From NCBI GenBank assembly GCA_964016885.1, contig OZ024742.1, positions 278,628,001 through 278,692,000 on the forward strand: a stretch of DNA of 64,000 bases. Reading direction: 5' to 3'. The DNA is from Eledone cirrhosa (taxonomy: Eukaryota). Made by a program: the position numbers and the translations under genes. The notes beneath the pieces are model-generated. The model made no database searches and had not been told where the DNA came from. It saw only the letters and a list, made by a program, of their open reading frames with translations. Shown piece after piece: positions 2,859 through 56,369 of this stretch; within the stretch, counting starts at the first letter, position 1; each line of letters starts with the position of its first letter.

Positions 2859-2954
2859 GGGGTCTCTTGATAAGCCTTCAGTCTCACAGCAATGGTGCAC
2901 CTTTATGTTGCATGCTTGCTGCAATTCAGTTGGTGAAACTTTAGTCGAGACTCT
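2859..2954 (+). ncRNA. Type I hammerhead ribozyme, U3-A8 core variant, long stem II
   Basis: GGGGTCTC/GAGACTCT stem I; TTGATAA core at 2867; stem II GCC..CAGCAA..TTGCTG..GGT (61 nt); GAAAC-TTTA-GTC. Confidence 0.75.
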
Positions 2955-3456
2955 GAAGAAAGAAAGGTATACATTTGCATATATATATATATATATATAT
3001 ATATATATATATATATATATATTAAGTACTCGATGAAATGTCACATTTGTAGGGCAATTTCTAGGTTAGATCTTTTAGGACGATCATTACATAGATACAA
3101 CTTTCATAGGACTAAAATAATTGACACTACAAAGTAAACTATAGCATCAACAAACCTAACTACATTACCATACATTTAAAACACTTAAATATAGTAATAT
3201 TACCGATATTTCTGTGGGTCAAAACACACAGACCTGCTTAAATCTTATAATTTCATGATTGTAGCATCTCAGTTCATAAATATACCTTAAGTCACAAATG
3301 CTGATCTGCTGGCTTTAATTGGCAGGACAAATCTTTACACACACACACTATATATATATGAACACAGACACACACACATATATATGTATACATAAATACA
3401 TACATATATATTTAAATATATATATATATATATATATATATATATATATATATATA

Positions 3457-3903
3457 TATTATTCAAAATATTAACAAATGAAGATATTCACAAAATCAAA
3501 ATATATGCTTTATTATATATATTTTTCGAAGGTACTGTAATGTTTTTTTCCAGTACATCCTCGTCAGATGAAATATATGATTTGATATATGACATACCTC
3601 TACTGTCTTGATATTTCAATTCCAACTGGAATTGAAATATCAAGACAGTAGAGGTATGTCATATATCAAATCATATTTAATCTGACGAGGACGTACTGTA
3701 AAAAAAAACATTACAGTACCTTCGAAAAATATATATAATAAAGCATATATTTTGATTTTCTGAATATCTTCATTTGTTAATATTTTGAATAATATGATAA
3801 CTCCCGGAATATATCCTTGTTGAGTGCTTTTAATCTATTGTAAAACTGTTTTAATCCATTGCAAAACATTGAGTAATCAATGAACAATATTAATCTTTGG
3901 TTA
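3457..3903. mobile_element. Fold-back PLE-like 3' fragment with HHR-like motif in both arms
   Basis: Near-perfect 168-bp arms around a 2-nt centre (3625-3626); CTGACGA(3682)..GTACTGTAA/TTACAGTAC..GAAA(3724); right arm about 108 nt longer; (TA)n on both sides. Confidence 0.8.
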
Positions 3904-4207
3904 TATATATATATATATATATATATATATATATATATATATATATATATACTTGTGTGTGTGTGTGTAATGAAACACAACCAGTGTAATCCGAAGATTT
4001 AATCCGATCAGTTACACATAAACAGATCATCATGTCAGCATTGTAAAACTTAAAAGTAAATAGAGCAAGATAGGTTAATGTAATACGCTTGAGGTTCAAT
4101 GTAGTCAGCCAATCACAACAGCTCGTCATTTTCTGTATGTTTCCTGCAAGAAAACTACTAACAATATTACGTTATTTTCTCACATTAAGCATATATATAT
4201 ATATATG

Positions 4208-5005
4208 CAGCGGCGGACTGGCCAGGTTGCCAGCTTTCCCAATGGCAATGGGCCCCAGGGGGCAAACAGTAGCATTGCAAGAGCCCACAGTAGCATTGCA
4301 AGAGCCCACTGTAGTATTTTAGGGGCCAATGCTCTGCTTTTAAAAAAATACCTGAATTCTAAGAGAAAGAATAAAATAAAAAAAAAATTAAATTAAACAA
4401 TTAAGCAAAGCATTTGGTGAACCAATTCCCCAAGGAATTCCTAGAAATCAAAATATACGATAGTACATTCTACTAAATGTAAAGCTTAGTGTATTCATTC
4501 ATGCATGCAAACATACATATAGAGACACAGACACAAATCATAGTAGATTCAAATATCACAGAGAGAGAGAGAGAGAGAGAGACGGGAGGTGGGGGTGGGG
4601 GGTGGGAACAGGAATGAAACATGGATTACAGGTTAAAATGTAGTCTAGATATATGAGAAACAAATCGAGGATTTAGAAGTCGACCTTAAGTAGGATCAAT
4701 AATATCAAGAAAGACATGAACGACACCACAACACTTTGTTTTGAAAATTTTTAAAATCGGTTTATAAGTATGAATTTTCATGAGCATTTAGTAGTTGTCG
4801 CTGTGGCATAGCGGTAGGTAAAAGAGACGATGGAGATCCGGACCTTGGGTTCAATCCTGGTTAAGAACTACATGTAACATTTTTAGAATTTTTATTTTAC
4901 AAACAATAGTAAAAAACTGAAAAGGTTTACAGGAAACCCTACTCCCGACCAGGATCGAACTTCAGACCAGGATCAACAACCAATATTTTTAGACCCAGTC
5001 CACTG
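4208..5005. mobile_element. hAT-like non-autonomous element (MITE)
   Basis: Ends CAGCGGCGGACTGG / CCAGTCCACTG (imperfect TIR); 8-bp direct repeat TATATATG at 4200-4207 and 5006-5013. Confidence 0.6.
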
Positions 5006-5310
5006 TATATATGTATATATATATATATATATATCTGTGTGTGTGAGAGAGAGAGAGAGAGAGAGAGAGAGAGAGAGAGAGAGAGAGTGAGAGAGAGAGA
5101 GCAATAGAGTATGTGTGTGAGTGTGTAAAAATAAACAAGGCAAACGACACAGTAGAATGAGGATATATTAGTTTGATGCTTGAAATGATAGAAAAAGACT
5201 CTTAAACTGTAGGACACTAGTCCTTCATTGGATGTTAGAATGAGAAATAAAAGTTGAAATAGAAAGATAAAGAATCTAAAGAGGAAAAAATAACGTGCGT
5301 CACTCAATCA

Positions 5311-52837: not shown

Positions 52838-53017
52838 TGAATTGGCAGTATCGGTAGAGGGTCGGACGCCATGCTTTCCCGCATAGTTACGTCCCTTTAC
52901 GGTCAGAGTTCAAATCCCGTCGAGGTTAACTTTGCCTTTCATCGTTACGGAGTCGATAAAATAAAGTACCAGTAATGCACTGGTTAATTTGCTGGCCTTG
53001 TGCCAAAAGTAGAAACA
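52838..53017 (+). mobile_element. Nin/Deu-domain SINE
   Basis: A/B boxes plus Nin core. Confidence 0.85.
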
Positions 53018-55690
53018 ACTACATATAGACAACAGATATACACACACTTGAAATACGCACACTTCCGTAGTTTTGTCACTTCGGAAGGTGTAGTATAATA
53101 GAAAACATACGGTTCTCTGGCAGTGGTTATTTCCTATGTAGATCTTTGTCAAAAGGATGGGTCTTAATCTTGCAATGCAAGTGTTTGTCTTTTGCATGGA
53201 CAGAGAGATAAACGATGAAGATGGATTCTCAAAGATACGGCAATCCTCTGTGAAAATGGAGCAATCATGATGTAAGTACGTGTATATACATAAGTGTATT
53301 TATATATGCATGTATGAATCAACCTGTATAGATATGGAAGTATATGCCTATAGTAATGTGCCTATGCATATTTTCATCATTGCATGAAATTTTGTAGATA
53401 AGTGTGCATGCTTGGAAATTATGAAAGCATGTACCTATGTATTTATTTATAGGTATCTCTACCTGCCTGTGTGTGAATGTAATATCTGTGCGTTCATCTA
53501 TGTAGCTATGCATGTGGAAGCTTACTTATGTAAGCAAGTGTACGGCTATCTATACATTAATCTGTGTAAATATTCATGCGACTGCTTCGACTTATGTACA
53601 CATGTATGTATACGTGTATGCATGTATGTGTGTACGAATGCATACATAAGAGTATTTACATACCCTTTCTTTGTATGAATTAATCTATATGGCTATATGT
53701 GTAAGCATGTATACTTATAATCTACATTGTATATATATATATATATATATATATATATATATATATTTATATATATGTATGCTTTTACTTATGTAGCCAT
53801 ATATACGTGTATGTATATATATATATATATATATATATATATATATATATATATATATATATATATATATATGTTTTTACTTATGTAACAATAAATACGT
53901 GTATGTATATATATATATATATATATATATATATATATATATATATATATATAAATCTGTATATATAGATATTATTACTTTTCTTGTCTTTAATTCTTTT
54001 TAAATTTTCATTAAAAAGTAGAGCTCGTTTCATGATTGTTTCAAACAACGTGACAGAGATCAATGGGTGAAATCTAGATAACAACAATTCTAAAGAATTA
54101 CATACATCAATGTTACTAATGCTAATTGAATCTACAGAATTCCTGATAAATAATCACTTTCTTTGAAAGAAAACAGTAAGCGTTCGGAGATCTTTAACTT
54201 AAACACTTAAACCCAAGCAAGCTAATGATTACAGCTTACAAATGTATAATTTATAATCTAGAATTTGTAGCCTTGACATTAGTTCTTCGGAGATGTTCTC
54301 TTTCTCTTCACAGTTTTACAAACTTTAAATGAAATATTTACATTTGCCATTAGTGAGCTGGCATAGTCGTTAGAGGCCAATGGTAGATTTTTTGCCTCTT
54401 TGTGAAGTGAATTTAAAATCATTGTAGATCGGTTCAATTATTCAGGCCCTCTGCGCTCTTCAAATCGTCGTTGTCTTTTAACCTTTCGGGGGCCGACAAA
54501 ATAGAGTATTAGACAGGACACTTGAGCGTTAGACAAATATCTTGAGATATCCTTGCCATGTGGTGAAGTAAATGAATCATTTCTTTGATCTGGCACTGTG
54601 CGCTATGAGTTTAATCCTGCAGAGGTCAACTTTGACTTTTAACTTTCAGTATCAGCCCCCGTCGGTAGATTGGTGCAATTGTTCTGGAGCTCTGCACCGA
54701 GAGCTCAAATCGATATTGTTTTTTATTCTTTCGGAGTCGACAACATAGAGCGTTAAACATTAATTTGAAATGGCTCTCTGCGTATGAGTTTAATCCTGCA
54801 GAGGCCAACTTTAACTTTCAACTTTTCAGGCTGATAAAATAAAATACACAGTCTAGGAGAGTGCATTGATGAAATTGTGGAGACTTGATGCCTTGCGGTG
54901 TATCCATCGATCTATTATGTTCTGAGTCCGACATCGATGCCAATGGTGATACGCTGTATCGAATATTAACTTTCTTCTTGGACAACATCAATAGTACTAA
55001 GAGATGAGACCTCCCTACATGAGCGACAGTTGGCCTTTCCTAAAACATCCTTGCGTTTGAAGCTGAAATTTCTAGGTGCAGATCAATGGTCGAATGAGAC
55101 ATAAGGGGTTGCCGAATATTAAAATATGCCGAGAGGCTGGCATTAATATTGATTTCGAAATTAAGCTCAACACCAGCTATTTTGGGCGAGGGGAGAGTTG
55201 TTTATATCAACCCCAGTTCGTGACCGGTACTTTACTTTACGACGTCGGAGGGATGAAAGGAAATATATGAAACCGTAGAGTACAAGCAAATGTATCAATT
55301 GTGTGGGTGTGACTTGGTGCGCGAATGTATATGTATGTGTCTGCATGAAACAAAAACAATAAACATTTCTGATATCATGCAACCAGAATAAGATGTGTTG
55401 TTTGTGTTTGTGATATTCATTATAGAGGCTGTAGAGCTGGAAATACTTGAGGAAATAGATTAGTGCTACCAATGAATATGTTCACATGATTTATTTAATT
55501 TATATCCCTGTGTTTATTGAGAAAAGTCGCACAATTTCAATATATATGCCTCCGTGGTATTTTCTTCGTGGTTATAAGAGGCTTAGCTCTGTTTCTCGAC
55601 CGTTATATCGCGTGACTATCTCCCCCTCCGCCTTTTGGGATTCTTTCTCACGTCGTGTAGACGCGTTCTTGAGACTAGTAAAATGAGGTA

Positions 55691-55778
55691 TCCTCTTGAT
55701 AAGTCGGCAGACCTCGCAAGGACTCTATATCTCTGATATATTGTTTTTGTTTATGCCACGAAACTACGTAGTCGAGGA
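55691..55778 (+). ncRNA. Type I hammerhead, U3-A8 core
   Basis: TCCTC-TTGATAA-GT.GGCA.GAC..GTT..TGCC-AC-GAAA-CTACGTAG-TC-GAGGA. Confidence 0.85.
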
Positions 55779-56281
55779 ATTTAGGAACAGTTTAGGTATG
55801 ATACATTTTATTACTAATTATATCTAAATGTTTCTTCTCTCTTCATAATGTATTTTTAACTCTGATACTGGTTCAGTCTGGTTCAAACTGAATTGGTCTG
55901 TCCCAGTCGTTCATTGAGCAACATCGGTGAAGTTGGCACCCTTAACTCACAGTTGGGTGCGGATGCATTCATGTATATATGTGTGTGTCCGCATGTATCT
56001 GTGTGTTTCTAAATATATTAATAACTCCCTCTGGTCGAGCAATCTTTGAAGTGTGGGGACAACTGGAAAGCTTCCATTACTCATACTTCTCGCCTTCTTC
56101 ACTACCTCTTCTACGGCCTCGATATGAATACCCCCTCCGCCTCCGTGGTATTTTCTTCGTGGTTATAAGAGGCTTAGCTCTGTTTCTCGACCGTTATATC
56201 GCGTGACTATCTCCCCCTCCGCCTTTTGGGATTCTTTCTCACGTCGTGTAGACGCGTTCTTGAGACTAGTAAAATGAGGTA

Positions 56282-56369
56282 TCCTCTTGATAAGTCGGCA
56301 GACCTCGCAAGGACTCTATATCTCTGATATATTGTTTTTGTTTATGCCACGAAACTACGTAGTCGAGGA
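56282..56369 (+). ncRNA. Type I hammerhead, U3-A8 core (second copy)
   Basis: Identical to 55691-55778. Confidence 0.85.

What the first reader, a model, noticed from the sequence alone, without database searches (positions are those of the whole stretch)
2859..56369. Four unrelated families use a U3-A8 hammerhead core (UUGANAA)
Seen: fully paired type I folds with TTGATAA (2867), TTGAAAA (21829, 41925), TTGAGAA (22356) and TTGATAA (55696, 56287) in place of CTGANGA. Both positions always change together and the flanking sequences are unrelated. Known: C3-G8 is a tertiary Watson-Crick pair in active HHRs, and the U3-A8 swap is a tolerated but uncommon variant. Inference: this genome holds a large class of variant ribozymes that CUGANGA-based searches miss; the covariation argues for selection on cleavage.
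Basis: partly seen in the sequence, partly recalled or inferred. Interest (0 to 1): 0.85.

Follow-up and report, generated by a model that had tools for sequence, protein, structure and literature searches.

The report
U3-A8 hammerheads of Penelope-like retrotransposons
This animal genome carries thousands of repeat copies shaped like hammerhead ribozymes with a U-A pair where the textbook core has C-G; they belong to Penelope-like retrotransposons and their likely short derivatives and are predicted to cut those elements' RNA, but the same variant was already described in blood flukes, so this is mostly a new example of a known thing.

Summary
The six UUGANAA cores are where stated and fold as type I hammerheads. 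They are real repeat families. U3 and A8 stand in 118 of 120 fetched copies, and one family alone has 11,586 exact U3-A8 copies. In 800 kb of genome taken without regard to content, hammerhead-shaped sites were 36 C3-G8, 20 U3-A8 and 3 mismatched, against about zero in controls. The 21829/41925 family lies in the 3' UTR of a Penelope-like element (PLE). The others look like non-coding PLE derivatives (retrozyme-like units). A protein tree rejects a single clade for U3-A8 carriers among Hydra-clade PLEs.

The variant is known: Cervera and de la Pena 2014 found about 1,300 U3-A8 motifs, with these same cores, in Schistosoma PLEs. Cleavage was not tested.

Odder, and outside the finding: a young Hydra-clade family with 20,797 exact copies has a CAGAAGA (U4A) core.

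The parts
2859..2954 (+). Family A hammerhead: helix I 8 bp, core UUGAUAA 2867-2873, long helix II, GAAA 2935-2938, predicted cut after C2946; (AT)n begins 32 nt later
   Evidence: 28 of 30 copies U3-A8, majority helix III palindrome in 19 of 30
21826..21861 (+). Family B hammerhead: helix I 3 bp, core UUGAAAA 21829-21835, helix II 4 bp, 6-nt palindromic helix III, predicted cut after A21858
   Evidence: 11,586 exact U3-A8-A17 copies genome-wide
21682..21961 (+). 5'-truncated 3' end of the family B PLE (GIY-YIG endonuclease with CX4CxxC linker, Neptune/Nematis type)
   Evidence: 5 of 30 loci carry the endonuclease 0.87-1.1 kb upstream on the same strand, with collinear DNA up to the hammerhead
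22347..22441 (+). Family D hammerhead: helix I 9 bp, core UUGAGAA 22356-22362, U.U then 4 bp helix II, real 7-bp helix III hairpin, predicted cut after A22432
   Evidence: position 7 varies (A 16, G 14 of 30) while 3 and 8 do not; 627 pattern matches genome-wide
21965..22644 (+). Family D unit (about 560 bp, 1.2 copies), no coding link found
   Evidence: internal direct repeat 21965-22073 / 22534-22644; coverage by other copies; spacing 558 in 2 loci
41921..41958 (+). Second family B hammerhead, helix I 4 bp, predicted cut after A41954
55691..55778 (+). Family C hammerhead, copy 1: helix I 5 bp, core UUGAUAA 55696-55702, 10-nt palindromic helix III, predicted cut after C55773
   Evidence: 30 of 30 copies U3-A8
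56282..56369 (+). Family C hammerhead, copy 2, predicted cut after C56364, 591 nt after the first
55548..56609 (+). Family C head-to-tail insertion, 1.8 units of 591 bp, ending in (AT)n, longest ATG frame 75 codons; retrozyme-like
   Evidence: (13 of 30 loci tandem, spacing 591-596)
17633..21378 (-). Context: Hydra-clade PLE (RWK, DKT, CxCX5C, C-terminal GIY-YIG; frameshifted ORF 18883-21241) with an ordinary C3-G8 hammerhead at 17921; further copies with cores at 33836(-), 35191(+), 38786(+)
42652..42702 (+). Context: family K hammerhead fold with core CAGAAGA (C3-G8 kept, U4 replaced by A)

Best explanation
These are type I hammerhead folds with a U3-A8 pair in place of C3-G8, carried at the 3' end of Penelope-like retrotransposons (one family) and in short non-coding units likely derived from such elements (three families), and they are predicted to cut the element's RNA after position 17, probably slowly and mostly as dimers. 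SHOWN: the motifs, folds, copy numbers, fixation of U3-A8 within families, the tie of family B to a PLE endonuclease, and the tandem 591-bp unit of family C. ESTABLISHED: positions 3 and 8 pair in the active core, and G8 contributes there; metazoan PLE hammerheads have palindromic helix III and cleave weakly, as dimers or with protein help. INFERRED: a read-through transcript with two copies pairs the helix III palindromes of A, B and C across copies, both cores fold, and cutting releases a unit-length RNA (591 nt for C) that may be circularised and reverse-transcribed by a PLE protein into (TA)n. Family D has a true helix III hairpin and would be able to fold as a monomer. The U-A pair likely arose several times through two transitions towards A/U, with the mismatched intermediates removed because only elements with a working pair kept spreading.
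For: Only the two Watson-Crick states are enriched in content-blind sequence: 36 C3-G8 and 20 U3-A8 versus 3 mismatched; controls near 0. By cluster, 11 C3-G8, 6 U3-A8 and 2 mismatched of 19 (Fisher p 0.002, clusters not independent). Core columns are more conserved than the rest in all four families, e.g. 0.97 vs 0.87 in A, while N7 varies in D. Palindromic helix III self-duplexes of -8.3 (B) and -12.9 (C) kcal/mol with no monomer hairpin. B is collinear with a GIY-YIG endonuclease in 5 of 30 loci. Two more U3-A8 families follow Hydra endonucleases at constant distance (3 and 2 loci). A tree of Hydra proteins puts these two beside different C3-G8 families and rejects their union, p-AU 3.5e-7. 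Copies end a family-specific distance before (TA)n and often have an inverted partner, as PLE insertions do. Same cores reported in Schistosoma PLEs; natural U3-A8 and in-vitro activity noted by Perreault 2011.
Against: No cleavage or expression data. In one pairwise-mutagenesis study of a type III hammerhead only the G-C swap rescued this pair and other double mutants were low. The anole PLE hammerhead cut only with protein, was dispensable for insertion in vitro, and no RNA-seq ends fell at its site. B and D have A17, which can pair with U3: predicted probability 0.81 in D and 0.43 in the 41925 copy, like the inhibitory C3-G17 pair. For 21829 the active-like fold is 4.9 kcal/mol above the minimum. 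No coding partner was established for A, C or D: endonucleases upstream of some A and C copies were separate insertions. A young, abundant family has a U4A core, so an intact core may not be needed for spread.
Confidence: 0.8

Rival explanations
1. The folds are hammerhead-derived but barely catalytic. They are kept as a structural or protein-binding signal near the site where reverse transcription starts, and the 3-8 pair is conserved for folding rather than for cutting.
For: Anole PLE hammerhead mutants still insert in vitro and no RNA ends were seen at the site. Minimal PLE hammerheads cleave weakly even as dimers. U3-A17 trap predicted in B and D. Family K spreads with U4A.
Against: The 3-8 pair is a tertiary contact of the active conformation, and the whole catalytic set with U16.1-H17 is kept in every U3-A8 family. 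Coral and mussel retrozyme hammerheads of the same layout cleave and give circular RNA.
Confidence: 0.13
2. U3-A8 arose once or twice, and the hammerhead-bearing 3' end was then swapped between PLE lineages or lost by reversal, so the apparent repeated covariation is inheritance.
For: A and C share sequence outside the core. B and a second family near a related endonuclease share a 4-bp helix II layout. The tree is unrooted and 8 of 14 rows have no known hammerhead.
Against: U3-A8 families differ in helix II length (13-75 nt), helix III and position 17. The four window families show no mutual similarity apart from A-C. Within family B no C3-G8 copy was found among the 51 C3 copies.
Confidence: 0.2
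3. Chance folds around a common heptamer in AT-rich DNA.
For: TTGANAA occurs 63 times in the window. One AT-rich satellite gave 14 false U3-A8-like hits when a G12 change was allowed.
Against: 0 in reversed sequence and 0.2 in shuffles versus 20 real; thousands of exact copies with 0 in the backwards control.
Confidence: 0.01

Closest known systems
U3-A8 minimal hammerheads of Schistosoma mansoni Cercyon PLEs (Cervera and de la Pena 2014, PMC4209133)
   Same: Type I, PLE-associated, mostly solitary copies, same cores UUGAUAA and UUGAAAA (Fig. S3 text), similar share: about 1,300 against about 2,000 C3-G8.
   Different: Here the carriers are Hydra-clade and Neptune/Nematis-type PLEs and retrozyme-like units; helix III carries 6-10 nt palindromes or a hairpin; helix II can be 40-75 nt; copy number is at least ten times higher.
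Hydra-clade PLE hammerheads (Craig et al. 2021, PMC8557442)
   Same: 3' location, (TA)n targets, frequent U before helix II and U before GAAA as in family D, short palindromic helix III.
   Different: All 26 Hydra rows listed there are C3-G8; here two Hydra families are U3-A8 and one is U4A.
Animal non-LTR retrozymes (Cervera and de la Pena 2020, PMC7229834; bioRxiv 10.64898/2026.07.22.740005)
   Same: Non-coding tandem units with one type I hammerhead each; family C folds as a circle far below shuffles (-172.6 vs -135.8 +/- 6.4 kcal/mol).
   Different: Units of 560-590 bp exceed the 170-400 nt described; U3-A8 core; circular RNA not shown; A and D are mostly solitary or inverted.
Rfam Hammerhead_1 (RF00163)
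   Same: Type I topology and catalytic residues.
   Different: No window site reaches the gathering score; its 18 genome hits are one C3-G8 family.

Membership tests
Type I hammerhead ribozyme | Three helices around the core with helix I open | tested here: met
   All six sites; weak at 21829 (3 bp helix I) and decayed at 2867
Type I hammerhead ribozyme | U4 G5 A6, A9, G12 A13 A14, A15.1-U16.1, H17 | tested here: met
   Mean majority frequency of 11 core columns 0.97-1.00 in 4 x 30 copies
Type I hammerhead ribozyme | Watson-Crick pair between positions 3 and 8 | tested here: met
   U3-A8 in 118 of 120 rows; accepted natural variant
Type I hammerhead ribozyme | G10.1-C11.1 or tolerated substitute | tested here: met
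   G-C in 20/30 A, 30/30 B, 28/30 C; U.U in 30/30 D, described as the best-tolerated mismatch
Type I hammerhead ribozyme | Site-specific self-cleavage after H17 | not testable with these tools
   Needs a transcription assay
Type I hammerhead ribozyme | Loop 1-loop 2 tertiary contact of canonical motifs | not tested
   Not examined; often absent in PLE motifs
Rfam RF00163 | Score at or above gathering threshold | tested here: not met
   0 hits in window
PLE pseudo-LTR hammerhead (family B) | Downstream of an RT plus GIY-YIG ORF on the same strand, collinear across copies | tested here: met
   5 of 30 loci; RT pieces seen in inverted partners
PLE pseudo-LTR hammerhead (family B) | Clade Neptune versus Nematis | tested here: inconclusive
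   Zn-finger-like linker and CCHH residues present; no reference tree built
PLE pseudo-LTR hammerhead (families A, C, D) | Own coding ORF upstream | tested here: not met
   No consistent ORF within 1.5 kb in 30 loci each; nearby endonucleases are separate insertions
Non-LTR retrozyme (family C) | Tandem non-coding units with one hammerhead each | tested here: met
   13 of 30 loci tandem at 591-596 bp; longest ATG frame 75 codons
Non-LTR retrozyme (families A, D) | Tandem units | tested here: inconclusive
   D tandem in 2 of 30, A in 0 of 30 by full hammerhead; one A locus shows a partial upstream unit
Non-LTR retrozyme | Expressed as circular RNA | not testable with these tools
   No run on record as RNA was available
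Hydra-clade PLE (window ORF 18883-21241) | RWK, DKT, CxCX5C, C-terminal GIY-YIG, (TA)n targets | tested here: met
   Motifs read in the translations against Craig et al. section 11

The most novel reading that the evidence does not exclude
The PLEs of this genome have retuned the hammerhead core again and again to weaken or gate it: U3-A8 in at least three places of the PLE tree, in three families together with an A17 that can trap U3 over the cut site, and a U4A core in a young Hydra family of over 20,000 copies. If these variants cleave only slowly or only with the element's protein, the genome offers a natural allelic series for the open question of what PLE hammerheads are for, and a large share of animal hammerheads is missing from CUGANGA-based counts.
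Probability: 0.25. Interest if true: 0.62.

Novelty: new member of a known kind. Interest (0 to 1): 0.36.

Why it matters
The variant itself is published, so a ribozyme specialist would not be surprised. The work adds three things. First, scale: roughly a fifth to a third of hammerhead-shaped sites in a 3.0 Gb genome, likely tens of thousands. Second, evidence that the 3-8 pair switched more than once within PLEs, including in the Hydra clade, where only C3-G8 had been listed. Third, a practical warning that statements of hammerhead absence made with CUGANGA descriptors can be wrong. The side findings (U3-A17 competition, the U4A family) give cheap tests of whether fast cleavage matters to PLE transposition.

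Tried and rejected
Rfam on the window: E-value mode listed 150 of 191 matches, nearly all microsatellite-driven miRNA models and no hammerhead among those listed; gathering mode gave 0. Pfam did not name the PLE proteins beyond a sub-threshold GIY-YIG hit, so clades were read from motifs.

My first scan missed 4 of the 6 sites because it allowed no bulge or mismatch; it was replaced.

Endonucleases upstream of family A (L055/L056, L035, L038) and family C (L027/L028) were rejected as partners. They are of different types, are separated from the hammerhead unit by microsatellite, and one type has its own C3-G8 motif. Fourteen U3-A8-plus-A12 hits from one satellite in L185 were dropped as artefacts.

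Expression: no RNA holder listed. Contigs of four runs laid on family C listed no variant in the cores; two contigs were one unit plus about 30 bases long, which a tandem array or a circle would both give, so they say nothing on circular RNA.

No earlier notes exist for this genome. Lunse et al. 2017 and Przybilski and Hammann 2007 were not held. A genome-wide survey of endonuclease families by profile was not available, so hammerhead type is known for only 6 of 14 tree rows.
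Full report
OBSERVATION. The six heptamers are at 2867, 21829, 41925, 22356, 55696 and 56287. I call the families A (2867), B (21829, 41925), C (55696, 56287) and D (22356). Each can form a type I hammerhead; landmarks are. The folds are less perfect than stated. B has 3-4 bp of helix I, D opens helix II with U.U, and the window's A copy has decayed relative to its family. Helix III of A, B and C is a palindrome that gives no hairpin alone; in B and C it forms a self-duplex of -8.3 and -12.9 kcal/mol, and D has a real hairpin of -4.8.

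FAMILIES. The window lies in a 3.0 Gb genome, which I did not identify. DNA searches listed 40-44 matches per family from 90-1,705 candidates, and I took the best 30 of each. These include the window's own copies and are biased towards the query. U3 with A8 stands in 28 of 30 A rows (one A3, one deletion) and 30 of 30 B, C and D rows; no row has C3 or G8. In D position 7 is A in 16 and G in 14 rows. Exact patterns give whole-genome counts. Family B has 11,820 copies with 3, 7 and 8 free, of which 11,586 are U3-A8-A17 and 51 have C3, all with A8. Family D has 627. Backwards controls were 0. So single uncompensated copies exist at a rate that fits decay after insertion, and the covariation lies between families.

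CHANCE AND SHARE. I fetched 80 stretches of 10 kb at fixed round positions and scanned them with my own descriptor, positions 3 and 8 free; its thresholds pass five of the six window sites. At score 24 there were 59 hits: 36 C3-G8, 20 U3-A8, 2 U3-G8, 1 C3-A8. Reversed sequence gave 3 hits, none C3-G8 or U3-A8, and six local shuffles gave means of 0.0 and 0.2 for those two. The hits fall into 19 clusters: 11 C3-G8, 6 U3-A8, 2 mismatched. A second descriptor gave 47 C3-G8 and 15 U3-A8, plus 16 C3-G8 with A4; 14 hits from one satellite were dropped. The U3-A8 share is thus 19-36% depending on the rule. Twenty per 0.8 Mb extrapolates to about 75,000. For family B the same extrapolation (6 exact matches in the sample) overshoots the true 11,820 about twofold, so 'tens of thousands' is the safe statement.

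CARRIERS. [quoted passage not shown] The most complete one uses an ordinary C3-G8 motif about 965 bp after its endonuclease. Family B follows a Neptune/Nematis-type endonuclease on the same strand in 5 of 30 loci with collinear DNA up to the hammerhead; 3 more loci carry that endonuclease inverted. In 23 of 28 scored B loci a (TA) run starts 14 nt after the predicted cut. A, C and D have no ORF of their own within 1.5 kb. C is a 591-bp unit, tandem in 13 of 30 loci and with an inverted partner in 18; D is about 560 bp. These look like non-autonomous PLE derivatives of the retrozyme kind; that origin is inferred from layout and from the preprint cited below. With cores masked, A and C share upstream sequence (z 7.2 and 4.3 for two copies, 2.1 for the window copy); the other pairs scored z 3.1 or lower and did not exceed the shuffle maximum. 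A short-flank profile test did not see the A-C link. The window therefore holds at most three independent U3-A8 lineages.

HOW MANY ORIGINS. In the sample two further U3-A8 families follow Hydra endonucleases at constant distance: E (3 loci, about 1,130 bp) and G (2 loci, 570 bp). A tree of 14 Hydra protein rows, 6 with a known hammerhead (one read by eye), places E beside family K (C3-G8, support 99/96) and G in a group with the window's C3-G8 element (100/100). Holding E and G together is rejected at p-AU 3.5e-7. With B in another clade, U3-A8 stands in at least three places. The tree is unrooted and cannot tell gain from reversal or from exchange of 3' ends.

MECHANISM. Shown: motifs, folds, fixation, carriers. 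From the literature: positions 3 and 8 pair in the active core; metazoan PLE motifs cleave weakly, as dimers; retrozyme repeats in coral and mussel cleave and yield circular RNA. Inferred: two copies in one transcript pair their palindromes, both cut after position 17, and the unit RNA is copied by a PLE protein into (TA)n. Against: a pairwise-mutagenesis study found only the G-C swap to rescue this pair in a type III motif; the anole PLE hammerhead needed protein and was dispensable for insertion in vitro; and B, D and G have A17, which can pair with U3 (predicted 0.81 in D, 0.43 at 41925, 0.00 at 21829), by analogy with the inhibitory C3-G17 pair. Nothing here shows cleavage or expression.

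WHAT IS KNOWN. Cervera and de la Pena 2014 (PMC4209133; main text parts 1-2 of 4 and supplement parts 1-2 of 3 read) report U3-A8 in Schistosoma Cercyon PLEs, about 1,300 hits against about 2,000, with the cores UUGAUAA and UUGAAAA. Perreault 2011 (PMC3088659; passages and part 3 of 8) reports natural U3-A8 and U10.1-U11.1. Craig 2021 (PMC8557442; passages, sections 3 and 11, supplement search and part 2 of 59) lists 34 motif rows, all C3-G8. Seen as passages only: PMC7229834, PMC6765202, PMC9901934, PMC3884650, PMC11167929, PMC7151607. PMC11014351 had none of my terms (72). Of bioRxiv 10.64898/2026.07.22.740005 I read part 1 of 5 and passages; its descriptors and supplements were not seen and may include U3-A8. 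Lunse 2017 and Przybilski and Hammann 2007 were seen only as titles in reference lists and may cover such variants. Searches showed no report of U3-A8 in Hydra or Neptune PLEs or in retrozymes; the library lacks most subscription journals.

SIDE FINDING. Family K is a Hydra-clade PLE with at least 150 copies at 97-100% protein identity and open frames up to 726 codons. In 28 of 30 loci, 944-952 bp after the endonuclease, it carries a hammerhead fold with core CAGAAGA. There are 20,797 exact matches with position 4 free; 96 of the 100 listed have A4, and 2 of the 4 with U4 overlap an inverted partner. One good copy is at window 42657. One search found no hammerhead paper with U4A, only U4C. Whether it cleaves is open.

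VERDICT. Real, abundant, PLE-borne, and of a kind already published. New member of a known kind; interest 0.36.

Noticed in passing
window 42652-42702 (+); further copies near 45487 (-) and 45726 (-); L219-L248: Young Hydra-clade PLE family K has a hammerhead fold with core CAGAAGA (U4A), U.U opening helix II and a hairpin helix III; 20,797 exact matches genome-wide. Not found in print by one search.
   Followed up: partly
window 21829/21858, 41925/41954, 22356/22432; family G in L177, L187: Three U3-A8 families have A17, which can pair with U3 across the cut site, the counterpart of the inhibitory C3-G17 pair.
   Followed up: partly
L139-L218 and window: Helix III palindromes differ by family (about a dozen distinct words), which would favour pairing within a family, a possible self-recognition code for dimers.
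   Followed up: no
window 17633-21378 (-), 33682-39077: Hydra-clade PLE in two near-identical copies (98%) with inverted and partial partners; C3-G8 hammerhead with an unusually long helix II of about 90 nt.
   Followed up: partly
window 24418-29401: 5-kb inverted duplication of another Hydra PLE; a C3-G8 core at 29010 (+) has a 10-bp helix I and palindromic helix III but a poorly paired, about 100-nt helix II.
   Followed up: partly
window 57171 (+), 22982 (-), 46483 (+), 42420 (-): Further C3-G8 hammerheads of other families; the one at 42420 has a damaged GAAA.
   Followed up: no
L155, L196, L205 (family E); L147, L148, L181, L188 (family F); L177, L187 (family G): Three more U3-A8 families outside the window, plus one singleton; F lies 831 bp after a second Neptune-type endonuclease in one locus.
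   Followed up: partly
window 5311-5478, 13551-14197, 23439-23857, 33198-33398, 39196-39306, 52836-53036, 60937-61192: A short dispersed repeat of about 170 bp with ten or more copies in the window, SINE-like in size; not examined.
   Followed up: no
window 62323-64000: Satellite of 5-nt-based units with 25-55 bp periods running to the window end.
   Followed up: no
L121-L138: The only family Rfam RF00163 detects in this genome is a compact C3-G8 motif with a 7-nt helix III segment.
   Followed up: partly
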